From a virus, in UHGV virus genome UHGV-0214148: a stretch of 64,000 bases of DNA; one strand, written 5' to 3'. Of the stretch, positions 43,560 to 61,390 are shown piece after piece. The notes beneath the pieces were generated by a model, which was not told the DNA's origin, made no database searches, and saw only the letters and a list, made by a program, of their open reading frames with translations. The first letter of the stretch is position 1. Every line of letters begins with the position of its first letter. Made by a program: the position numbers and the translations under genes.

Positions 43560-45854
43560 TTACTTACCAGCAGCAGCTTTGCCTTCGCCAGCAACGTTAC
43601 CTGCTACACCACCTTCGGTTTGTTTCTGACCGTTCTGTTCAACAGAAACATTGTAAGCCAGTTTTTCTTCAACCAGTTTGGTGATGCCTTTAACCCAGAT
43701 CAGACCAGTGATCGGGCAGTGGCAGATGTGCGCGTTACGCGGCTGTACGGCCAGCTCTTTAGAGGTAGAACCGTTACGCTGAATGTTGATGTTGGTAACC
43801 ATGATCGGAGACCAGAAGTGGTTACCCCAGTTCAGCACGTTGTAGGAACCATCGTCCGCAGTCGGAACTTTCAGGAACCATTGCAGACGACGAGTCCAGG
43901 AACCGTCAGCTGCGTTGTAGATACGCCAGCGGTCATCGTTGGTGGTGATCACTTCGTATTCGTAGCGATCGCCCAGCAGACGTTGGTCGCCCTGTACCAG
44001 CAGCAGCATAGATGCAGTCGGTTCGTCAGTTGCAATAACAACTTTCGGCAGAATGTCCGGATCGGCAGTGTACAGACGCAGCGCAGGAATGAAGCGAGAT
44101 TCCTGGATAGCCTGAGTTACCTGATTACCGATACGCTGTACCAGGCCCTGACGAGCGTTGATCAGTGCATCTTTGGTATCCAGGGACTGTACAACTTCAT
44201 CAACGTTGTAGTCAGACTCTTTGAACCACGGAGCAACCCAGTGACGGCCCAGACCACGAATGGCCGGTTTGTCCCACGGAGTGATCATGCTTGCAGCAGC
44301 GTTACGTACCGCTTCGGTGTAAGACAGCGTCTGAGTGATAGCCAGCTGTTCGTTACGGATGTTAACTGCGGAAATCAGGTCGTCCAGACGTTCGGTATCG
44401 TCGTATTCAACGCCAACCGGAGACTTGGTCAGGATCGGAGAACCGTATTGCAGTTTGTAGTTTTCTTGTTCCCAGATTGGGTCAAGCAGCAGACCCTGGG
44501 TACGACGGTTTTCGTTGGTACGAGTACCATCGAAGCGCCAGCCCATCAGTTCAAGTTTCAGACCGTCCAGGATAACTTTGCCGGTACCAGATTTGGTATC
44601 AACTTTGTTACCGGTAGCGTCGTACAGACCTTCGATTTCCAGTTTGTGACCAGCGATGTCAACTTTACCACCGAACTGACCGGTAGTGAACAGAGACATG
44701 TTGATGGTGATCACATAACGCAGGGTGTAGGAGTTCTGTTCCAGTGATTTCAGTGCCGGAATAGCTTCGCCTTTCCAGTCGGTGGTTTTCGCATTCAGAG
44801 AGAACGCAGTACGACGGAATTGCAGTACCAGCTCACGGCCATCACCTTCAGCAGGACGCTGGAAGGTTGCGAACTGCATGTCACGAACGTGCAGTTTGAT
44901 GAATTTACCTGCTTTCGCTTCTTCGGTCGGTTTACGTACGGAAATCAGCAGGCTGCCCAGAGCACAACCCGGTGCGATTTCATCAGTTTCGTCGTAACCT
45001 TCCTGAACGATACCCGGATGCGCAGACAGCTGGAACAGGTTCAGAGTGTCTTTAGCAAAGCTCAGGTAGTTAGTCGGGTACGGAGGTACACGACCCAGGC
45101 GAACAGATTCGTTCGGTACCAGTTCTTCGCTTACGAAGTATTCAGCGTTTTCACCGGTTTCCATTACGTAAGGAACGATGTTGATCGCTTCGTCCTGAAG
45201 AACGGTGTGGTCAGTCAGCGCTTCGTGCAGGTTACGACGATGATCTTCAACAACGTCTTTGGTCAGTAACGCGTGCATGACACCACGAGAAACGGTGGTC
45301 ACTTTGGTACGTACGGTAATACCAACATCGTTGGTGTCAACGGTGATGGTCGGGAACAGAGTCTCAGCAAAACGAGACTGAGTTTCCAGAGCACGTACGT
45401 TCAGCGTCCAGGTCAGACCCAGGTTTTTGTCGTAATCTTTGTTGGTGTAGTATTCCTGAGCAACAACCATACGCTCTTTGCCCCAGTCGCCGTTACCAGC
45501 TTGGGAACCAGGAATCGCAACGTCCAGGTTAAAACGGCTATGGAATTCTGGCTTAGCGTATTCTTGCGCTACTTTTTCTTGCAGGTCCATACCGTGACCA
45601 GCAGCACCCAGAATCATTGCAGAAGCAACTTCCGCAGCGTGGGACATTTTCTTACCGCCAGCAAACGCGTTTGCGTAGTGCTGTGCAGCATCGTCACGCA
45701 GGGTACCAAAAACTTTCGTGTTGCTACGTACAGACTCACCAGCAACGATGGTGTTCCACATTTCGCCAGCACTGTTGTTACTAATGACGCTTTGTACCAG
45801 CGAGTTACCAGCTTGTACGAGTTTCTCCAGATTAGAGATTCGGGTATCTTTCAT
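43560..45854 (-). CDS. highly expressed major virion protein candidate (764 aa; possibly major capsid protein)
   Basis: E. coli-optimal codon usage (CTG, CGT, GGT, AAC, GAA) contrasting with neighbours; strong bidirectional terminator immediately downstream. Function inferred only from size and expression signature. Confidence 0.85.
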   Translation of the reverse strand: MKDTRISNLEKLVQAGNSLVQSVISNNSAGEMWNTIVAGESVRSNTKVFGTLRDDAAQHYANAFAGGKKMSHAAEVASAMILGAAGHGMDLQEKVAQEYAKPEFHSRFNLDVAIPGSQAGNGDWGKERMVVAQEYYTNKDYDKNLGLTWTLNVRALETQSRFAETLFPTITVDTNDVGITVRTKVTTVSRGVMHALLTKDVVEDHRRNLHEALTDHTVLQDEAINIVPYVMETGENAEYFVSEELVPNESVRLGRVPPYPTNYLSFAKDTLNLFQLSAHPGIVQEGYDETDEIAPGCALGSLLISVRKPTEEAKAGKFIKLHVRDMQFATFQRPAEGDGRELVLQFRRTAFSLNAKTTDWKGEAIPALKSLEQNSYTLRYVITINMSLFTTGQFGGKVDIAGHKLEIEGLYDATGNKVDTKSGTGKVILDGLKLELMGWRFDGTRTNENRRTQGLLLDPIWEQENYKLQYGSPILTKSPVGVEYDDTERLDDLISAVNIRNEQLAITQTLSYTEAVRNAAASMITPWDKPAIRGLGRHWVAPWFKESDYNVDEVVQSLDTKDALINARQGLVQRIGNQVTQAIQESRFIPALRLYTADPDILPKVVIATDEPTASMLLLVQGDQRLLGDRYEYEVITTNDDRWRIYNAADGSWTRRLQWFLKVPTADDGSYNVLNWGNHFWSPIMVTNINIQRNGSTSKELAVQPRNAHICHCPITGLIWVKGITKLVEEKLAYNVSVEQNGQKQTEGGVAGNVAGEGKAAAGK

Positions 45855-45866
45855 TTGTTTAATACC

Positions 45867-46391
45867 TTAATGAGATAAATGACATGCGTATAATTGCGTC
45901 AGCACTTCGTTAGCGGCAAACTGCGTTGAGGTACTGAAGCAGTCATCCACGACGCGAGTCTTGGTACGCATATATTTAAAAAGTTCTGCGCAGAACATCT
46001 TTTTCGCAGCGTGGTCTTCACCCGAAGAAAAACCCGAACCGGACTTCGCTTCTGCAAATGACGCCACAATCGTATCACCACGTTGAGTAAACACCCAACG
46101 TACGCGACAAGGAATTGTTTCCCCATATAAATCGTCAAGGGAAACCTTTTCGCCTGATTCGACCAGACGTAACACCTGATCATAATATTTACCTGGAAGC
46201 ACAGGCGGAGCCATCAGTGCTTTATAAATAGCAGAACGACTTACTTCAGGTAAGATAATAGAACTGAAACCATTCGGACAGTCATATAACCAGTTAAAGA
46301 ACCCTGCCTGGAGCAATTCTATACTTTTAACGGCAGCGCCTTTATCTATGTTAGGTTGAACTTCCCACGGTGGACTAAAACGAATTTGCAT
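45867..46391 (-). CDS. hypothetical protein (174 aa)
   Basis: ORF track; 12 nt upstream of the 764-aa gene. Confidence 0.7.
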   Translation of the reverse strand: MQIRFSPPWEVQPNIDKGAAVKSIELLQAGFFNWLYDCPNGFSSIILPEVSRSAIYKALMAPPVLPGKYYDQVLRLVESGEKVSLDDLYGETIPCRVRWVFTQRGDTIVASFAEAKSGSGFSSGEDHAAKKMFCAELFKYMRTKTRVVDDCFSTSTQFAANEVLTQLYACHLSH

Positions 46392-46404
46392 TTAAGGATG
46401 CTCC

Positions 46405-47967
46405 ATGAATAACAAAATGATGTTGATAACCGCCTTAGCCACATTATACGCTGAAAGTCTTCTGACCGATCCTGAAAAGGACCACGACATCATAAGAAAA
46501 GTGCTGTTAGAGGCTAAGCTTCCTGATTACGCAGAAGAAGGTGACGAACGTGCCGCCCTCGTCGAAATCAAGGATATCATCACATCCATCATAGACGGCG
46601 GTATGCCTTACGACCACACAAACGTCATGAAACGTTTGAAACTGGCCACTACGCAAATACGTCCTCTATACGATACGATTACCAAATTCCTGGAAGATGA
46701 TATTCCAGAAGAACCAGAAGCACGCATCGAGCATCTTAATCGCCAAGTAGCACAATACTACTTTCAGTTACGTCAAGCTATTCAAGGCGTACAACTGAAA
46801 CAAAAATTGGGTCGTACGTTAGGCGCACTGAACGGCACTGAAACGCGTGTTGATTTACAAACGGCGCTCAACGACCTTAAGGATACCTTATCCACGTTCA
46901 GTGAACGCTCTCATAATAAGATTCCTTCTCTGGTAGGGGAATTGATTACTGACAATAAAGCACCCTTCGTACATGTATTCGACTCTATCAGTAAGAAAGC
47001 GGCAGGGAACGGGTTGCGTACGGGGTGGAAAGCAATTAACCAAATGCTTGGCTGTAACAAAGGGATCACTGAAGAACTCTGGCTGATGCCTGCTCTCCCC
47101 TTTAACTGTAAGTCATTATTCAGTTTATTGCTCTCTATTAGCATTCCTGTATTCAACACCCCAGAAAAGGTGATGGCAAATGTTAAAGGTGACTTACAAC
47201 CGGTTATTCTGGATTTAAGTTTAGAAAACGAATTAGATGTTAACTTGGCTTACGCGTATCAAGCACTTTACGGACACTTTGAAGGTACAGCTCCGGTAAT
47301 GGTTGCACCTGAAACGGCAACTGACGAAGAAAAAGCGCTACACAATGCACAAATGTCAGATTACCTCTGTAGTAAAATGCGGGCAAACGGTTGGGAGTAT
47401 ATTTTCCAAAAACACACAAACTCCGATTTTAAAATTCACTATTTGAATGATTTGATTTTAGATTTAAAACGTCGAGGTTATCATGTAGCTGGAATACGCG
47501 GAGACTATTTCGGTACTATCAGCAAAGCAGGACACGGTAACGGTATTGCGGGTAGTGACATTAAAGAAATTTATCGTATCGCGCGAAACATCCAAGTGGT
47601 ACGTAATCGTGGTTTCCTCTTAGCACCACACCAAATCTCACCAGAAGGCAAAAAATTAAAAGCACTCGACCCAGCAAGTTTCTGTAAGAGCTTACCTGGT
47701 CGTGGTCTTTACGACAACTGCTCTAGCTTAGACAACGAAGCTGACGGTGAGATGTATTTTAACAAACGTGTCGTCAGCGGACACAGCTATTTAGAAGTAC
47801 AACGCGGTAAACACCGTACCATTATTGACACCAAAGAAGCTTATCATTATACTGTAATACCTTTCCGCGATGTTGGCATTTTGCCATGGGATTGTGATAA
47901 AGAAGAAACTGTAACAGCCTCGTCGATTAACGTATTTACCGGCGGCATGGGTGACGAACTCTTTTGA
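46405..47967 (+). CDS. hypothetical protein (520 aa)
   Basis: Plus-strand ORF followed by plus-oriented terminators. Confidence 0.8.
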   Translation: MNNKMMLITALATLYAESLLTDPEKDHDIIRKVLLEAKLPDYAEEGDERAALVEIKDIITSIIDGGMPYDHTNVMKRLKLATTQIRPLYDTITKFLEDDIPEEPEARIEHLNRQVAQYYFQLRQAIQGVQLKQKLGRTLGALNGTETRVDLQTALNDLKDTLSTFSERSHNKIPSLVGELITDNKAPFVHVFDSISKKAAGNGLRTGWKAINQMLGCNKGITEELWLMPALPFNCKSLFSLLLSISIPVFNTPEKVMANVKGDLQPVILDLSLENELDVNLAYAYQALYGHFEGTAPVMVAPETATDEEKALHNAQMSDYLCSKMRANGWEYIFQKHTNSDFKIHYLNDLILDLKRRGYHVAGIRGDYFGTISKAGHGNGIAGSDIKEIYRIARNIQVVRNRGFLLAPHQISPEGKKLKALDPASFCKSLPGRGLYDNCSSLDNEADGEMYFNKRVVSGHSYLEVQRGKHRTIIDTKEAYHYTVIPFRDVGILPWDCDKEETVTASSINVFTGGMGDELF

Positions 47968-48070
47968 GTCTGGGGAGCTTCGGCTCCCCCTATAACCCCT
48001 TATGCGTCTCGGAAAGCAAAAAAAAACAGAAGACTATTAATTATGAATGGAAAACAACTACCGAACTAAG

Positions 48071-48100
48071 CAGGGGGTGGTAGCAACACCCCCTTTATTA
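48071..48100 (+). terminator. plus-strand terminator after 46405..47967
   Basis: GGGGGTGGT...ACCCCC + TTTATTA. Confidence 0.6.
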
Positions 48101-48109
48101 GTTAGTAAC

Positions 48110-48271
48110 TTATCTCCTTACAGGTGGTTGGTGAACATTGTGGTTGTTAACCGTTTTCGGTGCCGCAACGAGGCCGAGACGAACATATTCGTCCATGCGT
48201 TGGTTAAACTGAATTTGTTTCTCACGATTTCGCATCGCGGTATTGAACATCTGTATTTGATATTCGTTCAT
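48110..48271 (-). CDS. small protein S1 (53 aa), member of tandem small-gene array
   Basis: ATG with AAAGG RBS; weak similarity (Q-x-x-x-L-G motif) to S2/S3; below the ORF-track size cutoff. Confidence 0.45.
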   Translation of the reverse strand: MNEYQIQMFNTAMRNREKQIQFNQRMDEYVRLGLVAAPKTVNNHNVHQPPVRR

Positions 48272-48332
48272 TTTTCATTACCTTTCGTAATGTTGTAAAA
48301 ACGTCAACAACTTTATGTGTTGACACCGTACA

Positions 48333-48420
48333 GTAGAGACTGTTCCACCAGTCTCTACTGCTTTAACTTCTCTTTGGAAAAGTTAAAGCTAAGAAAAGGG
48401 GTGGTGAAGCACCCTTTTTT
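48333..48420. other. structured intergenic unit U1: variable 10-bp hairpin + conserved 31-nt box + terminator-like hairpin
   Basis: GTAGAGACTG-TTCCAC-CAGTCTCTAC, then TGCTTTAACTTCTCTTTGGAAAAGTTAAAGC, then GGGTG hairpin + T6. Confidence 0.6.
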
Positions 48421-48492
48421 ATACCTACGACCACCATCTCGGCAGGTTACTGTACGAGGAGGAGGGGCGCTGACACGCCCCTCCTTTATTTG

Positions 48493-48666
48493 TTAGTAGT
48501 GTTCACTCCTCTTTTCAGTGAATATCTGCGTGAAACGGTTGGTAGACGGTTTTAACCGTTTATCCATGCCGAGCTGACTATACTTGTAGATACGTTGCTG
48601 TAAATTGGTCTTTGCTGCACTCTGTTCTGCAAGCATTTTGTCAGTAAAGTAGTAACCATTGTTCAT
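48493..48666 (-). CDS. small protein S2 (57 aa), paralog of S3
   Basis: ATG with AGAGGG RBS; aligns with S3 (AEQ...QLG..KRLK.S.N....QIFTE.RS..Y). Confidence 0.55.
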   Translation of the reverse strand: MNNGYYFTDKMLAEQSAAKTNLQQRIYKYSQLGMDKRLKPSTNRFTQIFTEKRSEHY

Positions 48667-48728
48667 GGTAAGCCCTCTTTGTAGGGTGATTAAAGAAATC
48701 CACTACGGAAACGTGGTGGTGCTGTAAA

Positions 48729-48828
48729 GGGTACGCTGGTGCTACAGCGTACCCTGCTTTAACTTCTCTTTCGAAAAGTTAAAGCTATGTAAAGGGGTGT
48801 GACAGCACCCCTTTATTTTATTTAGTAG
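48729..48828. other. structured intergenic unit U2 (same architecture)
   Basis: GGGTACGCTG-GTGCTA-CAGCGTACCC + conserved box + terminator hairpin. Confidence 0.6.
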
Positions 48829-48992
48829 TTACTTCTCCTTTCGGTGAAGATCTGTACTCGAGGATTGTTAGAGGCTTTAAGCCTTTTATTTAATCCGAGT
48901 TGTTGAACCTCTCTTAGTCGTTCATTAAACCTCGCTTGTTCTGCATAGCTGTTTGAGATAGAAGTAAAGATACGTGTATTGTTGTTAGTCAT
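48822..48992 (-). CDS. small protein S3 (56 aa), paralog of S2
   Basis: ATG with GAGG RBS; conserved with S2 at protein level. Confidence 0.55.
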   Translation of the reverse strand: MTNNNTRIFTSISNSYAEQARFNERLREVQQLGLNKRLKASNNPRVQIFTERRSNY

Positions 48993-49020
48993 GTTAAAAC
49001 CTCACACGAGTTGGGGATTA

Positions 49021-49140: not shown

Positions 49141-49153
49141 TTGTTACCCCCTC

Positions 49154-49282: not shown

Positions 49283-49358
49283 GAACTTATCTCCTATGTT
49301 GAATTTGCGAAAATAAATAAAGTGTACCCCTAATCCCGAAAAGGATTAGGGGTTGCTT

Positions 49359-50174: not shown

Positions 50175-50190
50175 CTTTTATGCTCCAATT

Positions 50191-50223: not shown

Positions 50224-50228
50224 ATACA

Positions 50229-53300: not shown

Positions 53301-54671
53301 TTAATCCCTCGCATACCGTAACAACAAATACACCATCGGAATGTAATAGAATTGCGCATCCTTCGGCAAACGGTAAACTTCTTCAAACAACCGTAATGCA
53401 ATTACCGTTGACAGTGGGCGTTTATTCAGATAGAGATATAAACCGTATTCTAATAACGAACTGTACGAGCCCTCGTAGAACGTTGGGCTTAACAAATACG
53501 GTTCGTAAGTCAGTGGTAGAAATGCAGGGATTGATTCGCCTTCATTACCCCGATAGTTCTCCACTTCAACCGGTTCAAACTCCGTCCACTTCGGCCACTG
53601 TCCAGGGAAACGTTGCGCCATCCCATAGCCCGGTTTTAATTCATCGGTAAAGAATCGGGTATCCGAAATTAATGACCAGGTCACAGAATTCCGATGCTGC
53701 ATCGTACGGAAGGTTTTTACCTGCCAGACACTGGAATCACGTTTATAATCCGCTAAGAACGTTGGCGATTGATTTAACAACGCTGTCCAGACCGTTTCAA
53801 TATCTTCCACACGCATTGGTGGGTGCGGATAGATTTGAATATCTTTACCGACAGTCCGTAAACCTACAGAACGTACAAACTGTGCTAAGAACACGTCGTA
53901 GTACGCGCGACTACGCAGCCCATCGCTGTGCCGATCGTGCGGGAAAAGCAACGTTGCCGTTTCCCCATCGTAAAACCGTTTTACGTAAGTCTGTTCAATA
54001 TCCGCAATCGCATCAACAACCTTCAAAAACGCACGGTATTCTTTCGGTGTCAGTAACGTATCACCGCCCGTCCAGGCACGTTCAGAAACGTAATAATACT
54101 CACGGACCGTACAACGGCGAATGGTTTCTGCAACTTCTGGATCAACTTCAAACAGCAGCGTATATTCAATGTTATACGTTGCAATTTTGTTATTGGACAT
54201 CCGCACGACGTTCGTGACATTGAACAACGCGAACCGTCCGTCTCCAATCGGGGCAACAAAAAAACACCCTTCGTTGGGAATCACCGAGTTCGCCATTGTT
54301 GCGGCACCGGACATGGTGAACGTTTTGTTTGTCGTGTCCTGAGAACGATCTAACGGTGTAGTAACCCGCAATTCTAACCCGATGATTTTCTCTACTTGCT
54401 GGTCAGGCGTAAGTACCTTCGAATCGAAGAATTTCTTCGCGTCGTTACGCCCTTTCAGGAAATTAAAGAAATCCACTGTCCAGGAAGACCCTTCCAGGTA
54501 CTTCATCAGGTACTGTTTCGGTATACGCTCTAAATCCGTCACCGTTGTACGTGTCGGTTGTGTCACCACGTTCGTGGTTTCTTTCACACCGTCTTGTGGT
54601 TTATTCAACTCAGGGATCGGGCGTTCCACCGGTTCGAAAGAAGACGGTTTATCACGCTTCGCTTTGAGCAT
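53301..54671 (-). CDS. hypothetical protein (456 aa)
   Basis: ORF track. Confidence 0.8.
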   Translation of the reverse strand: MLKAKRDKPSSFEPVERPIPELNKPQDGVKETTNVVTQPTRTTVTDLERIPKQYLMKYLEGSSWTVDFFNFLKGRNDAKKFFDSKVLTPDQQVEKIIGLELRVTTPLDRSQDTTNKTFTMSGAATMANSVIPNEGCFFVAPIGDGRFALFNVTNVVRMSNNKIATYNIEYTLLFEVDPEVAETIRRCTVREYYYVSERAWTGGDTLLTPKEYRAFLKVVDAIADIEQTYVKRFYDGETATLLFPHDRHSDGLRSRAYYDVFLAQFVRSVGLRTVGKDIQIYPHPPMRVEDIETVWTALLNQSPTFLADYKRDSSVWQVKTFRTMQHRNSVTWSLISDTRFFTDELKPGYGMAQRFPGQWPKWTEFEPVEVENYRGNEGESIPAFLPLTYEPYLLSPTFYEGSYSSLLEYGLYLYLNKRPLSTVIALRLFEEVYRLPKDAQFYYIPMVYLLLRYARD

Positions 54672-56160
54672 TCTCTGTTCCTCGCATGGTAATAATGGTC
54701 GAGTTCAGCACCGTCAATAACACACGGGCTTCTACGTTCGGAATCAGTTTATTAATGTCATCGATAACACTCGGCGGTAACACCGGCTTATCCCACCACC
54801 AATCAGGAACGTCCCATTTCGGGAACAACCACTCAATTAATACTTTCGCTGCCTGTGGATATAACTGTAATGGCCAGAGGTTCATTCCACGCCAGTCAAA
54901 CATGACCGATTCGGTTAAGTAATAACCCTTATTTACTTTCAGGTCACGACCTTTAAGCGAAAACGTATTTCCTTCCCAATGGTAGAAACGCGGTTCGATA
55001 ATCTGTCCCTCTTCGAACAACTCGATACGGAAAACACCCGTCTGTCCTGTCGGGTCGATCGCACGACAATGTTCGATATACGGTAGCAACGCTTCGTTCC
55101 ATTCGTAAGGTAAATCTTCCGTAGACATCACCTTCGGCGATAACATGTTGTCCGGTTCAAAAACAACATCTGTACCGAAAATCGGTAAGAGTTTATCTTT
55201 AAGCGGGGAGTGCGTACGATGGAACTGTTCCGTGGGAGATAACAAATACGGGAGACGAATATACTGACGAGTTTCGTTAATCCACCAGGTTGAATCGAGA
55301 TTCTTCTGTTGTGGATGGCGGTAAACTAACTCCTCGTTAGATACCCACGGAGGATCTATCTCCGGCCAATATTCATCGGGCAGTGGTGTCTGATTGATGA
55401 TATACGGATACGATACCACAATCTCTTCAGGGCGCTGATAAGAGAAACGGATAACGAACGTTGCTTCCCAGTGGTTTTCATCTTTATCCCAAGCCGGTGT
55501 TTGAACGTCATATACCGTTTCTAAACGCGTAGGTGCGTAACGTACCGCAATGGTTTCCTGCCCCCCGGCAACATTGGCTGCACGAAATACGTCGGGCGTA
55601 AAATACGCTTTCAAATAAGCTTTAAAATCGTCAAACGTCGGTACTCGTGTTCCTGCAGCAACGTAGCAGGCATTCAACAACTTTAACGCGGGTTTAGGGA
55701 TATAATAGAACGCTTCTGACTCTGTCATGGTCGAATAACGGCCCATGTCCACTAATGAGTCTAAACGGTTCGTCCAGCGCAATAACTCATCACGTGAGGC
55801 ACTGGTACGTCGTAACGTTACTGTTACGTTATACATCGTTCTAACGGGCCAGGCGCGTACCTGATCGACACGGTTCTCAAAGAAGTACGGTTCAGCCTGC
55901 TGACCAACCTGACGATTGATTCTGGCCCACTCATCGCGTTCTTCTTCTACTTCAACGTAAACCTTTTCAGGTGAACTGTACTCTACTTCAGTACCGTCAC
56001 CTAAAGTAGAATCCGGTTGATGGGCGCTATTGAATTCATCGAGGAAAACAACCGCTGCTGTATCAATACCAGACTCATTAAGTACACGTTGTATAACGCC
56101 ATCGATTATTGGTTTGCGAATGGTCGCGTCTAACGACGGAATTTCAAAATACTGTTGCAT
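54652..56160 (-). CDS. hypothetical protein (502 aa)
   Basis: ORF track. Confidence 0.8.
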   Translation of the reverse strand: MQQYFEIPSLDATIRKPIIDGVIQRVLNESGIDTAAVVFLDEFNSAHQPDSTLGDGTEVEYSSPEKVYVEVEEERDEWARINRQVGQQAEPYFFENRVDQVRAWPVRTMYNVTVTLRRTSASRDELLRWTNRLDSLVDMGRYSTMTESEAFYYIPKPALKLLNACYVAAGTRVPTFDDFKAYLKAYFTPDVFRAANVAGGQETIAVRYAPTRLETVYDVQTPAWDKDENHWEATFVIRFSYQRPEEIVVSYPYIINQTPLPDEYWPEIDPPWVSNEELVYRHPQQKNLDSTWWINETRQYIRLPYLLSPTEQFHRTHSPLKDKLLPIFGTDVVFEPDNMLSPKVMSTEDLPYEWNEALLPYIEHCRAIDPTGQTGVFRIELFEEGQIIEPRFYHWEGNTFSLKGRDLKVNKGYYLTESVMFDWRGMNLWPLQLYPQAAKVLIEWLFPKWDVPDWWWDKPVLPPSVIDDINKLIPNVEARVLLTVLNSTIITMRGTENAQSEA

Positions 56161-56250
56161 TGGCTTGTTCCTTCGTTATAGTCATATCACAGGCGCGAAA
56201 TGAAAAAAAAAATAAAAGGGAACCGAAGCCCCCTTTTACGTTTAACCTGC

Positions 56251-56547
56251 CTATAACAGATAAGGTATACCTTCAAAGATAATCTCATCGTTAGCGAAGC
56301 CAACAGACGCTTCCTCACCCCCAGAGGTGGTTGCCCAAATCTCTGCCGCAAAACGCTGGTTGTTAATCAACAGCCCACGGTTGTTTTCGAACAACACTAT
56401 CAAGATCAACCTGACGCTTTTCTCTTGATGTAAACGGCGTATAAACGCGTGCTTTACAGGAGAAGGATACCAGGTGAAGCGCGCTATTTTCCCTTTCGCA
56501 ACTCTACCTAAAAAGAGCTTTTCTAAGGTTACAAACTCAGTGCCCAT
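56251..56547 (-). CDS. hypothetical protein (start revised to ATG 56547)
   Basis: ORF track start 56583 overlaps DHFR by 47 nt. Confidence 0.5.
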   Translation of the reverse strand: MGTEFVTLEKLFLGRVAKGKIARFTWYPSPVKHAFIRRLHQEKSVRLILIVLFENNRGLLINNQRFAAEIWATTSGGEEASVGFANDEIIFEGIPYLL

Positions 56548-57073
56548 CTCTTTTCCAAATCTGATAATGCCAACGCGGAACATCGCTATCCGGTTTGGAA
56601 GCGTGCGTTAAGTTATAAACCAGTCTAAACGTGTTACGATCGATTTCAGGAAAGAACGCATCCGCACCATCGACTTTAACTTCTACGCGTGACAAGTAAA
56701 TCTTATCCACGTAAGGTAACGCCTGATGGTAAATTTCTGCACCACCGATAATAAAGATTTCTTTAGGATAACCCTTTTTCTCAACCTCAGTTTTGAGGAA
56801 CTCAATAATCGAACCCATTTCACCCTTAAGGTTAAGCACCCCATCGATTTCGGGCACACCACCAGGTCTTCTCGTCAACACGACATGGTGACGATTAGGC
56901 AGGGGTTTATGCCCTAACGATTCCCATGTCTTGCTTCCCATCACGATAACCTTACCTGATGTAAGTGCCTTAAAATTCTTTAAGTCATCGGGAATACGCC
57001 ACGGTAATTTATTGTCTTTCCCAATTTCGTTATTCAACCCAGCAGCAGCTATCATCGAAACTGTAATTGTCAT
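56537..57073 (-). CDS. folA: dihydrofolate reductase
   Basis: MIAAAGLNNEIGKDNKLPW...VMGSKTWESLG...IGGAEIY matches the DHFR signature; true start is ATG at 57073 with GGAG RBS (ORF-track N-terminal extension rejected). Confidence 0.88.
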   Translation of the reverse strand: MTITVSMIAAAGLNNEIGKDNKLPWRIPDDLKNFKALTSGKVIVMGSKTWESLGHKPLPNRHHVVLTRRPGGVPEIDGVLNLKGEMGSIIEFLKTEVEKKGYPKEIFIIGGAEIYHQALPYVDKIYLSRVEVKVDGADAFFPEIDRNTFRLVYNLTHASKPDSDVPRWHYQIWKRDGH

Positions 57074-57375
57074 TTCTTTATCTCCAGTGAGCCTCTTAAA
57101 TGGCGTATAAAATCTTTTCGGGTATACCGACTCGTTTTGTACTGATCGGCTAAATGGTAAACGGTAACGTACCGCCCTTTGGCTTCCATATGCAAATGCG
57201 TTATATTGCCATCGTTCGTAGGGAGTGGTCTGATCAGAGGAATCATCAAATCCCCATTCCAACCAGGTTCATTAAGTCTCGGTATCAGTAATCGAATGTC
57301 TAGCCGTTTTACGCAGTACACCACATTACTTTCCGGCAACTTAACAACACATATCGCATCGGCTTTGAGTTTCAT
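57070..57375 (-). CDS. hypothetical protein (101 aa)
   Basis: ATGA overlap with DHFR start. Confidence 0.65.
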   Translation of the reverse strand: MKLKADAICVVKLPESNVVYCVKRLDIRLLIPRLNEPGWNGDLMIPLIRPLPTNDGNITHLHMEAKGRYVTVYHLADQYKTSRYTRKDFIRHLRGSLEIKK

Positions 57376-57377
57376 TT

Positions 57378-57977
57378 TTAACCTTCCTGGTATTGTCTAA
57401 TTCCGTAATCAGGTAGAATGTTTTCTACTGTGTTTTTCGGTACAACTGAAAGCTGGTTGTATAAATTCAACAAATCTTCACGCAGTAACTTCTGCTCGAT
57501 ATCAAGTTTATAACAAGCCAGTTCTTTTTCTAGCGGTTTAAGTAACACAACGCGTGTTTGAAAACCGTCAATAGGCTCAGGAACACGATAACCACGACGA
57601 CGGTAAAAGGTTTCCAGCTTCGAATAATCGCGAATGTATGTTTTCGTCAGTGTGGAATAACCTGCGTCTAACATAAACTTGTAGAACGGACGTAAAGCAA
57701 TGAAACGATCGTATTCCAGGTGTTCTGGAATATAGAATTCGTAATTGTTGTAAGTGAGCGTGGAGAGTTGAGAACCATTACAATGCGCACAGTTAATAAA
57801 AATAGCCAGTCCAATCATTACCGGACGTGGGACGATAAGGGTTTTATCGCCAAACCGAATACGAAAGATTTCCTGCTGTAAACTGGTTTCAGATACAACT
57901 TCAGCGTCTAAAATATTAAATTTGTTCATTTCTATTCTCCTAAAGGTCGAAAAAATAAAGCCCTCCGTAGAGGGCAT
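57378..57977 (-). CDS. hypothetical protein (199 aa)
   Basis: ORF track. Confidence 0.75.
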   Translation of the reverse strand: MPSTEGFIFSTFRRIEMNKFNILDAEVVSETSLQQEIFRIRFGDKTLIVPRPVMIGLAIFINCAHCNGSQLSTLTYNNYEFYIPEHLEYDRFIALRPFYKFMLDAGYSTLTKTYIRDYSKLETFYRRRGYRVPEPIDGFQTRVVLLKPLEKELACYKLDIEQKLLREDLLNLYNQLSVVPKNTVENILPDYGIRQYQEG

Positions 57978-57982
57978 TCTGA

Positions 57983-58624
57983 TTATAGAGCTTCGAAGAA
58001 ACGATCTACCGCCTGCGCAGCGGTAAGGTTAATCTGAATGAAAGTGCTTTCCTGTTCTGTTTCTTCGCTTGCTACCAGCGGGAGCAGCTTAAAGCCATCA
58101 CCTACTTCCAATACGCGCTCCACGATACGCGGTATGTCATTTAATCCAGATAGTGAACTGGTGACATCATCCATACGCATCTCGGCCGCATCATTCGCAA
58201 TACTGCAAACCAACTCTTCATTCGTAGGTTCAACAATACGAAAGTAGATAACGGTCGTAAAGAACTTATTCTCGCCTTCACAGATAGCAACATGCGAATC
58301 TTCAAAAGAGTAATATTTCACACCATCAAAAGTTCTGGTAACAACCGGGGTGTTGACATCTTTAAGCAAGCTGTTTAAAAGGGTCTGTGGCAAACGGCTC
58401 TGAATTTCTGTTTTATACACAAATTCACGTCGACCAACCTTCAGCACCTCTTCATCAAGACCCTTACAGCCAGCGTCTATAGCCCTTGCTAACCAAATCG
58501 AAATTGCAATAACTTCGGCTTGATACAACGATAAGACTCTTGCGTTTGGTGCCGCCATTACGAGTTTGTCGCCTTCAACAGAAAAGGCACATTCACAGAA
58601 GTCAGCTAAATTGTAACGTGTCAT
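57983..58624 (-). CDS. hypothetical protein (213 aa)
   Basis: ORF track; promoter-like motif upstream. Confidence 0.75.
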   Translation of the reverse strand: MTRYNLADFCECAFSVEGDKLVMAAPNARVLSLYQAEVIAISIWLARAIDAGCKGLDEEVLKVGRREFVYKTEIQSRLPQTLLNSLLKDVNTPVVTRTFDGVKYYSFEDSHVAICEGENKFFTTVIYFRIVEPTNEELVCSIANDAAEMRMDDVTSSLSGLNDIPRIVERVLEVGDGFKLLPLVASEETEQESTFIQINLTAAQAVDRFFEAL

Positions 58625-58673
58625 GATAATTCTCCTAAACGTAATAAACAGGTCGTTAAAAGATTACATTGTA

Positions 58674-58700
58674 ATCTCACTAAGGTAATATCTATCTGAG
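58674..58700 (-). promoter_or_regulatory. conserved promoter-like motif copy 4 (degenerate)
   Basis: CTCAGATAGATATTACCTTAGTGAGAT upstream of 57983..58624. Confidence 0.45.
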
Positions 58701-58714
58701 ATTATTTTTAATGC

Positions 58715-58760
58715 GAAAAAAAAAAGAAAGGGGAGAACCACCCCATTACAGGGTGGTTCT
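58715..58760 (-). terminator. intrinsic terminator after paralog A virion gene
   Basis: AGAACCACCC-CATTACA-GGGTGGTTCT + T10. Confidence 0.65.
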
Positions 58761-58779
58761 CTTACTAAACAATCAGGGA

Positions 58780-60069
58780 TTATTTAGATTTTTCGTAAGC
58801 AGCGATACCTGCGGAGATATAGCCGTTCAGACCGCCAGCCAGATGTTTCTGAGTAGAGGCAATAACTTTCTCGCCCAGAGACACTGCCTGGTTAATGCTG
58901 TTGATGTAACGACGTGCGGTACGTACAGATTCGGTCAGTTCCGGTTTTTCGTCGATCTTCACGCTGTCGATTTCTTTCAGCAGCTTCTCAATCTGCTGAC
59001 TGAATTTCTCGCGAGCCTGTTCGGTCTTACGATATTCCAGAACGTTCTTCTCAATCTGTTTACCCACTTCGTTGAAGAAGGCATTGGTCTTAGCCAGTTC
59101 GCTAACAGACGGAGTTTTAACGTTGGTTTCAGCACGGTTTTCAGCTTCCACGTAGCTGGAGCTAAAGCCGCCTTCTTCGTCATATTCCATCTTCAGCGCC
59201 ATGTTACCAAGTTTGAACTTGTTAACGTCTTCTTTGGCCAGAGCAGCGAAGTCTGCTTTCAGTTTATCAACTTTAGCGCCATCGCCTTTAACAACGTTAC
59301 CAACCAAATCCGTACCGTTGTTCAGGAAGCTCTGAACGTTACCACTGTAGTAGGTGGAAACGTGGTTCAGGATATTCTTCAGGCGCACCAGATCGTCACC
59401 AACGAATTTACCGTCGACGGACAGAGACTTGATGAAGCCACCAGAGATTTCATCTTTCTTCTGTTTGCCCAGCTTACGAATAGCTTCGTCGTATTTCTTA
59501 GAACGGGCCTGGATGGATTTACCCTGGTTGGAGAATTTCAGCCAACGATCTTTGATCTTACGGCCTTGTTCTTTCAGCCATTCCCAAATACGTTTCAGGA
59601 AGGCTTTAATGTCTTCCCACAGGGATTCACGAGCAACCTGACGACGGTTACGAGAACCGTAGGATTCGTGAGCAACAGAAGAACGGTGTTCGAAGTTCCA
59701 ACGAGAACGGATAGATTCCTGAGCAACGTCCAGCGCAGTCGCAGCGTCGTCCGGCATATCTTCTTCGGCGTCCATCGGTTCTTCACCGTCTTCGCCAGCA
59801 CCTTCACCGTCAGCAGCAGCCTGAGCTTCATCCAGAACTTCCAGCTGAGCATCAGTTTCGTCACCGTCTTCTGCCAGCAGTTCAGCGTCAGCGTCCAGGG
59901 CTTCGATCGGTTTGGTATCATGCTCGATATCGGCCAGAGTACCTTCAACAGATTCTGCTGGCAGTTCGATGCCGTCTGGAACTACAGTGGCAGTAGCTTC
60001 CATCGATTCACGAGCGGCGCGAGTTTTTGCGAAATTTGCCATTTTAAGCTTTTCCTCTAAGGGGAACAC
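58780..60069 (-). CDS. highly expressed virion-associated protein, paralog A (429 aa)
   Basis: Host-optimal codon usage; first 16 aa (MANFAKTRAARESMEA) identical to paralog B and C-terminus conserved (GLNGY..AGI.AY.KSK). Confidence 0.85.
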   Translation of the reverse strand: MFPLEEKLKMANFAKTRAARESMEATATVVPDGIELPAESVEGTLADIEHDTKPIEALDADAELLAEDGDETDAQLEVLDEAQAAADGEGAGEDGEEPMDAEEDMPDDAATALDVAQESIRSRWNFEHRSSVAHESYGSRNRRQVARESLWEDIKAFLKRIWEWLKEQGRKIKDRWLKFSNQGKSIQARSKKYDEAIRKLGKQKKDEISGGFIKSLSVDGKFVGDDLVRLKNILNHVSTYYSGNVQSFLNNGTDLVGNVVKGDGAKVDKLKADFAALAKEDVNKFKLGNMALKMEYDEEGGFSSSYVEAENRAETNVKTPSVSELAKTNAFFNEVGKQIEKNVLEYRKTEQAREKFSQQIEKLLKEIDSVKIDEKPELTESVRTARRYINSINQAVSLGEKVIASTQKHLAGGLNGYISAGIAAYEKSK

Positions 60070-60118
60070 GTCGTTCCCCTATTGATTTATTTCAAGAACT
60101 GTACGAGCGTAAGTCTAA

Positions 60119-61390
60119 TTATTTAGACTTTTTGTACGCGCCGATACCAGCACCCAGGTAACCGTTCAGACCGCTAATGACGGTGTTAGCTACGTAGCTA
60201 ACGGCACGGTTCAGGGTCTGGTAGTTCTTCACAGACTGATCAGCAGCTTGACGTGCATTACGCAGTCCTTCCCACTTACTCTCGTCTTTTTCGTTGTTCA
60301 GCGCGTTGGACGCTTTTTCAGCAGCCTGTTGCAGTTTCACGATTTCAGAATCGTAAGCACGGAAATCTTTCAGTACGGCTTCGAAGCCTTTACCGATTGC
60401 TTCCAGAGCAGATGCTGCGCCAGCCATTTCAGAAACAGACGGAGTAGCCACTTCTTTATCGTCAGAAGCGTCACCGGTGCTCATGAAAGCAATTGCGGTG
60501 AACTTGTGGCCGCCAGCCAGTTCTTTAGTACCAGCCTGAACGTAAGCGTTGCCCGGCAGTGCCAGCAGTTTAGACGCATCACCATTTTCAAAGTTCGGCA
60601 GAGAATGCAGTTTAGACGCTGCTTTACCAAACAGTTCTACCGGCTGATCGCCACGCATTGCTTTGAATGCGTCATCGTCACCTTTGGTAACAGCGGTCAC
60701 AGCTTCACCGGCTTGTTTTTCCAGTGCACCGATAGCACCTTTCGCTTTACCTGCGGTAACTTCTTTAGCGATGGCAATAGAGCCAGCAGCATCGAATTTA
60801 CCTTCGATGGACAGTTTGGTGATAAAGCCACCAGAAATGTTGTCTTTATCTTGTTTGCCCAGCTTGCGGATCATTTCCTGATATTTCTTCGCACGTTTCT
60901 GCGCGGTCTTACCGACGTTGAAATATTTCAGTTTCAGGTCTTTGATCTTCGCGATCACTTCTTTACAGAACTGAATGAAGCGCTCGTAAAGACCCTTCAG
61001 GGTTTCTTTCCAACCTTCCTGGGCAGCAGCAGTCATGCCACGACCACGGCGATAGGATTCGCGAGCCAGTTTAGTGCGCTCCAGGTTCCAACGACGTGCG
61101 ATGGATTCCTGTGCCACTTCGTGCAGGGCAACCGCTTCTTCCGGCATTTCTTCACCGTTAGCAACGGCTTCTTCCGCCTGTTCGATAGCGTCTTCAGTAC
61201 GCTCGGTATCGGCAGCCAGGGTTTCACCGTCGGTTTCCAGCTGATCGAGCTGACCGTCGATAGATGCTACGTCCGCAAGTTGGACGTCCAGGTTCTCTTC
61301 TGCCGGTTCAACGTTGCTGATACCGTCGATTACTTCATCGGCCGCTTCCATCGATTCACGAGCGGCGCGAGTTTTTGCGAAATTTGCCAT
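60119..61390 (-). CDS. highly expressed virion-associated protein, paralog B (423 aa)
   Basis: As paralog A. Confidence 0.85.
   Translation of the reverse strand: MANFAKTRAARESMEAADEVIDGISNVEPAEENLDVQLADVASIDGQLDQLETDGETLAADTERTEDAIEQAEEAVANGEEMPEEAVALHEVAQESIARRWNLERTKLARESYRRGRGMTAAAQEGWKETLKGLYERFIQFCKEVIAKIKDLKLKYFNVGKTAQKRAKKYQEMIRKLGKQDKDNISGGFITKLSIEGKFDAAGSIAIAKEVTAGKAKGAIGALEKQAGEAVTAVTKGDDDAFKAMRGDQPVELFGKAASKLHSLPNFENGDASKLLALPGNAYVQAGTKELAGGHKFTAIAFMSTGDASDDKEVATPSVSEMAGAASALEAIGKGFEAVLKDFRAYDSEIVKLQQAAEKASNALNNEKDESKWEGLRNARQAADQSVKNYQTLNRAVSYVANTVISGLNGYLGAGIGAYKKSK

What the first reader, a model, noticed from the sequence alone, without database searches (positions are those of the whole stretch)
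43560..61390. Codon-usage islands marking three probably abundant virion proteins, including a paralog pair with identical 16-aa N-termini
Genes 43560..45854, 58780..60069 and 60119..61390 use strongly host-optimal codons unlike their neighbours, typical of very abundant proteins such as capsid, sheath or internal head proteins; this same bias produces long spurious antisense ORFs. The two ~425-aa paralogs are divergent overall but begin with the identical peptide MANFAKTRAARESMEA, which contains two S/A-x-E triplets, the cleavage motif I recall for phiKZ-type prohead proteases. That would make the N-terminus a candidate capsid-targeting or propeptide signal.
Basis: partly seen in the sequence, partly recalled or inferred. 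Interest (0 to 1): 0.5.

Follow-up and report, generated by a model that had tools for sequence, protein, structure and literature searches.

The report
Capsid and internal head protein genes
The three codon-optimised genes are the major capsid protein and the two very abundant internal head proteins of an SPN3US-like giant phage, whose shared protease-cleaved N-terminal tag is already described in SPN3US; here the tag is nucleotide-identical because one gene's start was recently copied onto the other.

Summary
The window comes from an SPN3US/Asesino-like giant enterobacterial phage.

- **Gene identities.** 43560-45854(-) is the phiKZ-type major capsid protein (SPN3US gp75 orthologue). 60119-61390(-) and 58780-60042(-) are the orthologues of SPN3US gp53 and gp54, both phiKZ_IP family internal head or ejection proteins.
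- **Codon bias.** Their CAI is 0.74, 0.67 and 0.71, against 0.265±0.058 (max 0.41) for 71 other ORFs. ENC is 32-34 against 51. The same three genes rank top in SPN3US and across a whole 222-kb relative.
- **Antisense ORFs.** They lie in the codon-aligned frame and arise because TTA/CTA/TCA codons are almost absent.
- **Published precedent.** SPN3US papers report these as the three most abundant virion proteins, note the identical 15-residue N-termini, and map ARE-12 and the maturation cleavages. All six mapped AXE sites are conserved here.
- **What appears new.** The identity is a perfect 49-nt repeat. Relatives 93-96% identical carry a different gp54 start (MANFYKNKIARESMES). The identity therefore reflects recent short-tract gene conversion, and the N-terminus shows concerted evolution across the clade.

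A capsid-targeting role for the tag remains untested.

The parts
43560..45854 (-). Major capsid protein gene (764 aa; orthologue of SPN3US gp75, 78% aa identity)
   Evidence: PF25620 E = 4e-209 and phrog_3231 E = 1e-280. It matches solved giant-phage capsid proteins, including phiKZ gp120 8y6v. CAI 0.736, ENC 32.2.
45453..45854 (-). Predicted capsid-protein propeptide, codons 1-134, ending at AQE-134|YYTNK
   Evidence: It aligns with the MS-mapped SPN3US gp75 site ATE-130|YYTNK (PMC10052503 Table 2). Five of the seven AxE motifs in the protein lie in this 134-residue segment.
43521..43544 (-). Intrinsic terminator after the capsid gene
   Evidence: 10-bp GC-rich stem followed by a T-run. Fold -22.1 kcal/mol, z = -5.3.
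60119..61390 (-). Internal head/ejection protein, gp53 orthologue (423 aa; 69.5% aa identity to SPN3US gp53)
   Evidence: PF12699 E = 1.5e-73 and phrog_2497 E = 4e-146. CAI 0.671 with no TTA/CTA/TCA codons. ARE-12, AQE-95 and AQE-125|GWKETLK are conserved.
61016..61390 (-). Predicted gp53-like propeptide (codons 1-125): basic 12-mer tag, acidic core, basic linker
   Evidence: Net charge is +2 for residues 1-12, -26 for 13-95 and +5 for 96-125. The mature part is +10 with pI 9.3. Eight of 13 AxE motifs lie here.
58780..60042 (-). Internal head/ejection protein, gp54 orthologue (420 aa; 62.5% aa identity to SPN3US gp54); true start is the ATG at 60042
   Evidence: PF12699 E = 8e-59 and phrog_2497 E = 6e-119. 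CAI 0.707 with no TTA/CTA/TCA codons. AHE-126 and ARE-139|SLWEDIK are conserved.
59626..60042 (-). Predicted gp54-like propeptide (codons 1-139)
   Evidence: It aligns to the MS-mapped SPN3US gp54 site ARE-137|SLWDDIK. The propeptide has net charge -27 and the mature part +10.
61344..61392 (-). Donor copy of the exact 49-nt repeat (-2 to +47 of the gp53-like gene), encoding MANFAKTRAARESMEA
   Evidence: The same sequence is present in the gp53-like gene of all close relatives, L001-L004 and L024.
59996..60044 (-). Recipient copy of the 49-nt repeat (gene-conversion patch at the 5' end of the gp54-like gene)
   Evidence: Relatives L002-L004 and L024 carry ATGGCGAATTTCTACAAAAACAAAATTGCTCGTGAGTCTATGGAGTC here, which differs at 16 of 47 ungapped positions. 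The next 100 nt are 93-95% identical to the window.
60060..60080 (-). Intercistronic hairpin without a T-run, immediately upstream of the gp54-like RBS
   Evidence: 8-bp GGGGAAC/GTTCCCC stem. The stem is kept while the loop varies in relatives, and SPN3US has a different stem sequence at the same place.
58733..58761 (-). Intrinsic terminator ending the gp53-like/gp54-like gene pair
   Evidence: 13-bp stem followed by a T-run. Fold z = -3.3.
58711..60060 (+). Spurious antisense ORF (449 aa) across the gp54-like gene
   Evidence: It is in the codon-aligned reverse frame, and the sense gene has no TTA/CTA/TCA codons. The sense strand carries the Pfam and PHROG matches.
60248..61435 (+). Spurious antisense ORF (395 aa) across the gp53-like gene
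   Evidence: Same mechanism.
43620..45878 (+). Three spurious antisense ORFs (375, 149 and 201 aa) across the capsid gene
   Evidence: They are separated exactly at the reverse complements of the only TTA (codon 196) and TCA (codon 370) in the gene.

Best explanation
The region encodes the three highest-copy head proteins of an SPN3US-like giant (phiKZ-related) myovirus of enterobacteria. These are the T=27 shell protein and two tandem paralogous internal head ('ejection') proteins.

Codon bias. Because each particle needs hundreds to more than a thousand copies of each protein, selection for translation efficiency has driven these three genes to the codon set of highly expressed enterobacterial genes (CTG, CGT, GGT, ACC, TCT, AAC and so on). 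One side effect is the near absence of TTA, CTA and TCA. That removes stop codons from the codon-aligned antisense frame and leaves long meaningless ORFs.

Precursor layout. Each internal protein is made as a precursor with four segments:
- a basic 12-residue N-terminal tag ending in ARE|S;
- a strongly acidic segment of about 80 residues, studded with AXE sites;
- a short basic linker;
- a basic mature protein of about 31.7 kDa.

Assembly (inferred by orthology with SPN3US, not shown for this phage). The precursors are built into the prohead. The S80 prohead protease cuts after A-X-E at positions 12, about 95, about 111 and 125/139, and at 134 in the capsid protein. The acidic fragments leave the head, and the basic mature proteins stay with the DNA and are ejected into the host.

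Origin of the identity (shown). In this phage the N-terminal identity of the paralogues results from a recent templated replacement of 41-49 nt at the 5' end of the gp54-like gene by the gp53-like sequence, that is, gene conversion.

Function of the tag (inferred). Across the clade the tag shows concerted evolution on top of an invariant core, M-(A/S)-N-F-x5-A-R/Q-E-S. This fits a shared recognition or processing function, either docking to the same prohead partner or to the protease.
For: Identities.

Codon bias and its mechanism. The same three genes top the CAI ranking in SPN3US (0.716, 0.693, 0.649). They also top the ranking in a whole 221.9-kb relative (0.710, 0.706, 0.681, against tube 0.548, sheath 0.459 and a median of 0.294). 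That order parallels the measured SPN3US copy numbers: capsid about 1,560-1,615, gp53 and gp54 more than 600 each, sheath and tube about 260 (PMC5694885, PMC10052503).

Cleavage: all six MS-mapped SPN3US sites are conserved as AXE at aligned positions (PMC10052503 Table 2). AxE density is 4-6 per 100 residues in the propeptides and 0.3-1.7 in the mature parts. An S80 protease gene is present in the close relative NZ_CP173450.1.

Charge layout.

Gene conversion:
- There is an exact 49-nt repeat.
- All 13 informative codons of positions 2-15 are the same, where the background same-codon rate at identical residues is 0.61.
- Relatives L002-L004 and L024 keep a different gp54 start with otherwise near-identical flanks.
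- Both alleles are common in databases, 32 versus 19 protein clusters.

Concerted evolution: within-genome N-terminal identity is 0.856 against 0.692 across genomes (permutation p = 1e-4). For the rest of the protein the figures are 0.281 and 0.272. Five lineages have different but internally identical tags, including a shared loss of Ala2 in L021.

Protein-level constraint on ARES: synonymous differences accumulate at codons 10-16 in other genomes, and the motif persists in homologues down to 29% identity.
Against: - No proteomic or expression data exist for this particular phage. Abundance, incorporation, cleavage and ejection are all transferred from SPN3US orthologues that are 62-78% identical.
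- The CAI weights are for E. coli and were typed in from memory, and the true host is not known. ENC, which needs no reference, gives the same three outliers.
- The prohead protease gene is not in the window.
- Identity of the two tags is not required for viability. Many relatives (L002-L005, L008, L014, L018, L024) have non-identical tags, which weakens any argument that identity as such is selected.
- The tag occurs on no other ORF of a 222-kb relative. It is therefore not a general capsid-targeting sequence shared by many head proteins, as the T4 sequence is.
- The direction of the conversion (gp53 to gp54) rests on the distribution among relatives, not on a rooted phylogeny.
Confidence: 0.88

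Rival explanations
1. The identical N-termini reflect only strong purifying selection on a functional peptide inherited unchanged from the ancestral duplication, with no gene conversion.
For: The core M-x-NF...A-R/Q-E-S is conserved in homologues down to 29% identity. In other genomes the ARESxE codons differ at synonymous sites, as expected for protein-level constraint.
Against: In the window every synonymous site in 49 nt is identical. Positions 5-9, 14 and 16 differ freely between phages yet match within five lineages. Relatives 93-96% identical to the window carry a gp54 start that differs at 16 of 47 nt.
Confidence: 0.05
2. The shared 5' sequence is maintained at the RNA level. It would act as a common translation-initiation region or regulatory target that gives both abundant proteins the same initiation rate, and the peptide itself would be secondary.
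For: In several other genomes codons 2-9 use the same codon in both paralogues (7/8, 7/8, 8/8, 6/8, 6/6), while codons 10-16 do not (1/6 to 3/7). CAI of codons 2-16 is only 0.42-0.45 against about 0.7 for the rest of each gene, as expected for a 5' region under constraints other than elongation speed. Both genes have a hairpin just upstream of the RBS.
Against: The regions upstream of the ATG, including spacing and RBS context, differ between the two genes. Viable relatives have quite different 5' coding sequences in the two genes. The peptide carries an experimentally cleaved site in the orthologue (ARE-12; PMC10052503). A/U-rich codon preference near start codons could by itself raise same-codon use.
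Confidence: 0.12
3. The codon-usage islands mark horizontally acquired genes (from the host or another phage) rather than translational selection for abundance.
For: GC content is locally higher at the islands, 0.49-0.51 against about 0.44.
Against: The genes are core, syntenic orthologues throughout the SPN3US/Erwinia giant-phage clade and carry the same bias there. The bias is specifically towards the optimal codons of highly expressed enterobacterial genes, not a general composition shift. The CAI ranking follows measured virion copy number (PMC5694885). A third family member in the same genome (26013-27146) has ordinary codons.
Confidence: 0.02
4. The long antisense ORFs are real overlapping genes.
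For: They are long (375-449 aa), and one exceeds the length of its sense gene.
Against: They are fully explained by the absence of three sense codons. All family matches lie on the sense strand. The antisense ORF 58711-60060 has CAI 0.281. PGAP annotates none of them in the relative NZ_CP173450.1.
Confidence: 0.01

Closest known systems
Salmonella phage SPN3US gp53 and gp54 ('paralog family A', high-abundance ejection proteins; Ali et al. 2017 PMC5694885; 2023 PMC10052503)
   Same: Direct orthologues (69.5% and 62.5% aa identity) in the same tandem order. Both match PF12699 and have the same propeptide and mature layout. Cleavage motifs are conserved at ARE-12, AQE-95, AQE-125 and AXE-126/ARE-139. 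The paralogues have identical N-termini, and the codon bias is the same.
   Different: The tag sequence differs (AKTRA..M.A here, VKSKL..V. in SPN3US). In SPN3US the two tags differ at 6 synonymous sites in 45 nt, which points to an older homogenisation. Here they are nucleotide-perfect over 49 nt, and the unconverted allele still circulates in close relatives.
SPN3US gp75 / phiKZ gp120 major capsid protein (PF25620)
   Same: 78% aa identity to gp75. The maturation-site context VAxE|YYTNKD is conserved. It matches the solved phiKZ capsid protein 8y6v.
   Different: The site is AQE-134 rather than ATE-130, because of small N-terminal indels. Nothing else was noted.
phiKZ inner-body proteins gp93/94/95/162/163 (pfam12699), cleaved by gp175 at S/A/G-X-E
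   Same: Same Pfam family. phiKZ gp93 is processed close to its N-terminus at SLE-13, as cited in PMC5694885, which is analogous to ARE-12 here.
   Different: phiKZ has five paralogues at lower copy number. The SPN3US-type protease has only been seen to cut after A-X-E. I did not compare the phiKZ sequences directly.
T4 capsid-targeting sequences of internal proteins IPI-III and Alt (Mullaney & Black 1996, as cited in PMC5694885)
   Same: A short N-terminal peptide of about 10-20 residues on basic internal head proteins, ending in a prohead-protease site and removed during maturation.
   Different: Here the tag is followed by a further propeptide of about 110-125 residues. It is carried only by the two paralogues in a 222-kb relative. 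Sufficiency for targeting is untested, and there is no sequence similarity to the T4 sequences.
Translational-selection codon bias in high-copy phage structural genes (general principle; my own knowledge, e.g. T4 gene 23)
   Same: The highest-copy virion proteins use the host's optimal codons.
   Different: None in kind. The contrast here is unusually sharp (CAI about 0.7 against about 0.27) and ranks proteins in the order of measured copy number.

Membership tests
phiKZ-type major capsid protein (PF25620) | Full-length match to the family profile above the curated threshold | tested here: met
   696 bits against a cut-off of 27, covering profile positions 2-634 of 635. phrog_3231 E = 1e-280.
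phiKZ-type major capsid protein (PF25620) | Sequence relationship to structurally solved giant-phage capsid shell proteins | tested here: met
   phmmer hits to four solved capsid-protein sequences, including phiKZ gp120 8y6v at E = 4e-35.
phiKZ-type major capsid protein (PF25620) | N-terminal propeptide of about 130 residues removed at an AXE site | tested here: inconclusive
   The motif and its context are conserved (AQE-134|YYTNK against SPN3US ATE-130|YYTNK). Cleavage itself cannot be tested with these tools.
phiKZ_IP internal head proteins (PF12699) / SPN3US paralog family A | Profile match above the gathering threshold over the whole domain | tested here: met
   248.7 and 200.2 bits against a cut-off of 27, covering profile positions 2-387 of 387. 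phrog_2497 E = 4e-146 and 6e-119.
phiKZ_IP internal head proteins (PF12699) / SPN3US paralog family A | Orthologous position and tandem arrangement in the genome | tested here: met
   The gene order is the same as SPN3US 53606-56220, with the same flanking genes.
phiKZ_IP internal head proteins (PF12699) / SPN3US paralog family A | Long N-terminal propeptide with AXE sites at the positions mapped by MS in SPN3US | tested here: met
   ARE-12, AQE-95, AQE-125, AHE-126 and ARE-139 are all conserved at aligned positions.
phiKZ_IP internal head proteins (PF12699) / SPN3US paralog family A | Packaged inside the head at high copy number and cleaved by the S80 prohead protease | not testable with these tools
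   Only proxies are available. These are extreme codon bias, an S80 protease gene in the close relative and the SPN3US proteomics (PMC5694885, PMC10052503).
T4-type capsid-targeting sequence | Short N-terminal peptide ending in a prohead-protease site and removed in the mature protein | tested here: inconclusive
   The motif ARE|S is present and invariant across the clade. Cleavage at ARE-12 was seen by MS only in SPN3US gp53 (PMC10052503).
T4-type capsid-targeting sequence | The same tag is shared by several otherwise unrelated head proteins | tested here: not met
   A six-frame scan of the 221.9-kb relative finds the tag only on the two paralogues. The third phiKZ_IP member in the window lacks it.
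T4-type capsid-targeting sequence | The tag is necessary and sufficient to direct a protein into the prohead | not testable with these tools
   This requires fusion or deletion experiments.
Gene conversion between tandem paralogues | A tract of perfect nucleotide identity, including synonymous sites, embedded in otherwise diverged genes | tested here: met
   49/49 nt are identical, while the next best shared stretches are 71-77% identical. All 13 informative codons are the same against a background rate of 0.61.
Gene conversion between tandem paralogues | Close relatives retain the unconverted allele with conserved flanks | tested here: met
   L002-L004 and L024 carry MANFYKNKIARESMES, with 34/47 aligned nt identical in the tract and 93-95/100 just downstream.

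The most novel reading that the evidence does not exclude
The 12-16-residue N-terminal tag is a paralogue-specific signal for prohead incorporation or protease docking. Its sequence is repeatedly homogenised between the two most abundant internal head proteins by very short-tract gene conversion. Both proteins then compete equally for the same prohead partner (for example the gp243-like factor needed for their incorporation in SPN3US), which would hold their roughly 1:1 stoichiometry. The co-circulating 'identical' and 'non-identical' alleles in the ~225-kb phage population would then be a natural experiment on that stoichiometry.
Probability: 0.25. Interest if true: 0.45.

Novelty: new member of a known kind. 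Interest (0 to 1): 0.25.

Why it matters
The main value is as validation. Codon-usage contrast alone correctly picked out the three highest-copy virion proteins of a giant phage, in the order of their measured copy numbers. It also explains long antisense ORFs that could be mis-annotated as genes.

The biology of abundant internal head proteins with long acidic propeptides and an AXE-cleaved N-terminal tag is already published for SPN3US, so a specialist would not be surprised.

The modest addition is evolutionary. The tag's identity is maintained by short-tract gene conversion, it is polymorphic among near-identical phages, and identity as such is dispensable while the core M-x-NF-x5-ARES is not. 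That narrows which residues to mutate when testing whether the tag is a targeting signal. It also offers natural allele pairs for the experiment.

Tried and rejected
- **Solved structures for the internal proteins.** A profile search of the PDB found nothing at E <= 0.1.
- **tRNA genes.** I looked for phage-encoded tRNAs in the window that might explain the codon pattern and found none.
- **Sigma-70-like promoters upstream of the three genes.** There were none above chance, as expected for phiKZ-like phages that use their own RNA polymerases.
- **Tag on other head proteins.** I tested whether it is shared, as in T4. It is not, either in the window or in a 222-kb relative.
- **Horizontal transfer as the cause of the bias.** Rejected, because the orthologues are syntenic and carry the same bias.
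- **Assembly artefact as the cause of the 49-nt identity.** Rejected, because L001 and 32 independent protein clusters carry the same allele.
- **Odd SPFM-phage hits.** I first suspected that the 'proteins' hit by the gp53 query were annotated antisense ORFs. They are block-scrambled copies of gp53, an annotation artefact in those records.
- **Literature.** Searches for codon-usage islands or gene conversion in these proteins found nothing specific. The library is incomplete, so absence there is not proof of novelty.
- **phiEaH2 annotation.** The 'hypothetical protein' under the capsid match in phiEaH2 is only a 37-aa ORF beside a mis-called capsid start.

Full report
**What the window is.** The capsid-gene region matches giant enterobacterial myoviruses of the SPN3US/Asesino/phiEaH2 group at about 77-83% nucleotide identity. 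Gene order across 43-64 kb is colinear with SPN3US 50.9-72.4 kb. Much closer relatives (88-99%) exist only as IMG/VR contigs and isolate-assembly contigs. They are also deposited as ~222-kb circular 'plasmids' of E. coli and Enterobacter.

**Checking the observation.** ORFs 43560-45854, 58780-60069 and 60119-61390 exist on the minus strand. The two shorter products both contain MANFAKTRAARESMEA.

The middle ORF as listed starts at a GTG (60069) nine codons upstream of that peptide. The ATG at 60042 has a GAGGA ribosome-binding site, the GTG lies in a hairpin loop, and every orthologue starts at the ATG. The gene is therefore 58780-60042.

I scored codon usage over 74 ORFs. CAI used Sharp-Li E. 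coli weights that I entered from memory, so absolute values are approximate.
- The three genes score 0.736, 0.707 and 0.671.
- The other 71 ORFs give 0.265 ± 0.058 with a maximum of 0.408.
- The reference-free effective number of codons is 32-34 against a mean of 51 and a minimum of 43.6.
- The shift is towards CTG (92% of Leu against 17%), CGT, GGT, ACC, TCT, CCG, ATC and AAC. This is the signature of highly expressed enterobacterial genes, not a simple GC shift.

The antisense ORFs are all in the codon-aligned reverse frame, where stop codons are the reverse complements of TTA, CTA and TCA. Those three codons occur 2, 0 and 0 times in the three genes, against about 5 per 100 codons elsewhere. 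The capsid gene's two occurrences (codons 196 and 370) coincide exactly with the ends of its three antisense ORFs.

**What the genes are.**
- 43560-45854 is a phiKZ-type major capsid protein. It matches PF25620 at 696 bits and phrog_3231. It is 78% identical to SPN3US gp75 and hits solved giant-phage capsid proteins including phiKZ gp120.
- The paralogues are phiKZ_IP (PF12699) internal head proteins in phrog_2497.
- From the maturation-site peptides, 60119-61390 (…AAQE|GWKETLK…) is the gp53 orthologue. 58780-60042 (…VARE|SLWEDIK…) is the gp54 orthologue (PMC10052503 Fig. 3).
- None of the three is a sheath protein.

**Comparison with published experiments on the orthologues.** In SPN3US, gp75, gp53 and gp54 have the three highest spectral-count/mass values of the virion (22.6, 21.0, 20.2). 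There are about 1,560-1,615 copies of gp75 and more than 600 copies each of gp53 and gp54, against about 260 for sheath and tube (PMC5694885; PMC10052503).

The 2017 paper explicitly notes that the first 15 residues of gp53 and gp54 (MANFVKSKLARESVE) are identical despite 34% overall identity. It also notes that they contain AXE-12 and SXE-15 and resemble T4 capsid-targeting sequences.

The 2023 paper maps cleavage by the prohead protease gp245 at these sites:
- ARE-12, AQE-95 and AQE-125 in gp53;
- AQE-124 and ARE-137 in gp54;
- ATE-130 in gp75.

It also reports a preference for Ser at P1'.

All six sites are conserved as A-X-E at aligned positions in the window proteins: ARE-12|S, AQE-95|S, AQE-125|G, AHE-126|S, ARE-139|S and capsid AQE-134|Y. 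AxE motifs are concentrated in the predicted propeptides, at 3.7-6.4 per 100 residues against 0.3-1.7 in the mature parts.

Its propeptide half has experimental support in the orthologue. Its targeting half is still open.

**Codon bias tracks copy number.** The same three genes are the CAI maxima in the 77 kb of SPN3US that I scored (0.716, 0.693, 0.649 against medians of 0.30-0.32). In the complete 221.9-kb relative NZ_CP173450.1 they rank 1-3 of 237 ORFs (0.710, 0.706, 0.681). Tail tube scores 0.548 and sheath 0.459.

A third, previously unremarked phiKZ_IP member in the window (26013-27146) has ordinary codons (CAI 0.276). The bias is therefore not a property of the protein family. It belongs to these two high-copy members.

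**Anatomy and likely mechanism.** Each paralogue has four parts:
- a basic 12-mer (net +2);
- an acidic stretch, residues 13-95 (net -26 and -29);
- a basic linker;
- a basic mature protein of about 31.7 kDa (net +10, pI 9.3).

By analogy with SPN3US, the precursors enter the prohead. The S80 protease, whose gene is present in the close relative, chops the acidic propeptide into small pieces that leave the head. The basic mature proteins remain with the DNA and are ejected. These steps are inferred, not shown, for this phage.

The pair is followed by a strong intrinsic terminator (58733-58761), as is the capsid gene (43521-43544). Hairpins without T-runs sit just upstream of both paralogue ribosome-binding sites.

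**What the identical N-terminus really is.** At DNA level the identity is an exact 49-nt repeat, 59996-60044 = 61344-61392. The next most similar stretches of the two genes are only 71-77% identical. All 13 informative codons of positions 2-15 are the same, where the same-codon rate at identical residues elsewhere in the pair is 0.61.

The decisive evidence comes from close relatives. L002-L004 have gp53-like proteins 93-96% identical to the window's, and the E. coli 'plasmid' is 88% identical at the nucleotide level.
- They have the same gp53-like start.
- Their gp54-like gene begins MANFYKNKIARESMES. It differs at 16 of 47 ungapped nucleotides.
- The following 100 nt are 93-95% identical to the window.

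The window and its 99% twin L001 therefore carry a templated replacement of 41-49 nt at the 5' end of the gp54-like gene by the gp53-like sequence, that is, short-tract gene conversion.

Among 52 database clusters of the gp54-like protein, 32 carry the converted allele, 19 the YKNKI allele and one a chimera. The converted allele sits mainly on one backbone cluster but also on a second. The YKNKI allele is spread over more diverse backbones. YKNKI is therefore probably ancestral, and the converted allele has either arisen more than once or moved by recombination.

**Clade-wide pattern.** In 10 non-redundant genomes with both paralogues, the 16 N-terminal positions are 85.6% identical within genomes and 69.2% between genomes (permutation p = 1e-4). 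The rest of the protein shows 28.1% against 27.2%.

Five lineages have internally identical but mutually different tags: AKTRA, VKSKL, AQRKV, AQRKI and M-NFAQRNL, the last with a shared loss of Ala2. Others have non-identical tags (L002-L005, L008, L014, L018).

The invariant core is M-(A/S)-N-F … A-R/Q-E-S. It persists in homologues down to 29% identity. In other genomes it shows synonymous divergence, so it is held by selection on the protein.

My reading has three parts:
- The core is functionally constrained, as a cleavage site plus something else.
- The variable positions are homogenised sporadically by conversion.
- Strict identity is not required.

An RNA-level role for the first ~27 nt cannot be excluded. 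Codons 2-9 use the same codon in both paralogues in several genomes. I rate this as less likely.

**Is it a T4-type capsid-targeting sequence?** It works like one in being a short N-terminal peptide ending at a protease site on basic internal proteins. However, the tag is found on no other ORF in a 222-kb relative. It is followed by a further propeptide of more than 100 residues, and sufficiency for targeting is untested. I therefore do not file it as a member of that class.

**Novelty and verdict.** The finding is real, correctly interpreted and already explained by the SPN3US literature. This locus is a new member of a known kind. The apparently unreported element is the nucleotide-level evidence for recent and recurrent short-tract gene conversion, with a standing polymorphism of the tag. 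No mention turned up in the searchable library, which is incomplete. Interest is low to moderate.

Noticed in passing
window 26013-27146 (-): A third phiKZ_IP family member (377 aa; PF12699 31.5 bits, phrog_2497 E = 3e-74). It has ordinary codon usage (CAI 0.276) and lacks the MANF..ARES tag, but it has ALE|S motifs and an IRKRW motif like the paralogues' propeptide. The SPN3US papers list only gp53 and gp54 as this paralogue family. RefSeq calls the SPN3US orthologue (89362-90495) an 'internal head protein'.
   Followed up: partly
gp54-like gene, window 58780-60042; proteins P0054-P0110: The gp54-like protein is far more diverse in databases than its gp53-like neighbour, with about 52 clusters at 90% identity against a handful. 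Variation is concentrated at aligned residues ~210-300 of the mature protein, while the propeptide is almost invariant. This could reflect diversifying selection or mosaicism in an ejected protein.
   Followed up: partly
whole window; relatives NZ_CP173450.1 (E. coli 98232, 221,873 bp, circular) and NZ_CP134650.1 (Enterobacter ludwigii, 222,441 bp): Close relatives of this giant phage are deposited as circular 'plasmids' in complete bacterial genomes. They also appear as 220-227-kb contigs in many Salmonella, Shigella and E. coli isolate assemblies. This suggests a carrier state, pseudolysogeny or frequent co-purification with isolates.
   Followed up: partly
NZ_CP173450.1 137326-139164 (L027:37326-39164, -), outside the window: A 612-aa protein with no Pfam match has the fourth-highest CAI in the relative's genome (0.648), above tail tube (0.548) and sheath (0.459). 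It is presumably another very abundant protein. I suspected a phage-nucleus shell protein but did not test this.
   Followed up: no
window 60060-80 and about 61424-61462 (-): There are stable hairpins without T-runs immediately upstream of the ribosome-binding sites of both paralogues. The stem upstream of the gp54-like gene is conserved while its loop varies in relatives. SPN3US has a different stem sequence (GGCGGTAC/GTACCGCC) at the same place. They could be processing or stabilising elements or partial terminators.
   Followed up: partly
C-termini of both paralogues, window 58783-58835 and 60122-60174: Both paralogues end in a conserved motif, G-L-N-G-Y-x-x-A-G-I-x-A-Y-x-K-S-K. The two ends are 77% identical at nucleotide level, so the motif is held at protein level and not by conversion. 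It is the second most conserved segment of these otherwise 40%-identical proteins and is retained in the mature form.
   Followed up: no
proteins P0111, P0113-P0118 (Salmonella phages SPFM5-20, GenBank LR5359xx): These records contain 'proteins' that are gp53 cut into blocks of about 20 residues and joined in reversed order. This is an annotation or translation artefact in the deposited records.
   Followed up: partly
window 35434-38151 (+): The only long plus-strand gene in this part of the window is the portal orthologue (905 aa; phrog_3004, syntenic with SPN3US gp81). In SPN3US the portal is itself a protease substrate with a 254-residue propeptide.
   Followed up: no
first ~50 codons of all three genes: CAI drops to 0.33-0.45 over codons 2-16 and to 0.42-0.56 over the first 50 codons, against about 0.7-0.75 for the rest of each gene. 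This is the familiar relaxation of codon optimisation near start codons.
   Followed up: yes
NC_019929.1 (phiEaH2) 238987-239122, locus L030: The phiEaH2 record calls the capsid gene from a later start and annotates a 37-aa antisense ORF inside its true 5' end. This is a small example of mis-annotation in this gene.
   Followed up: yes
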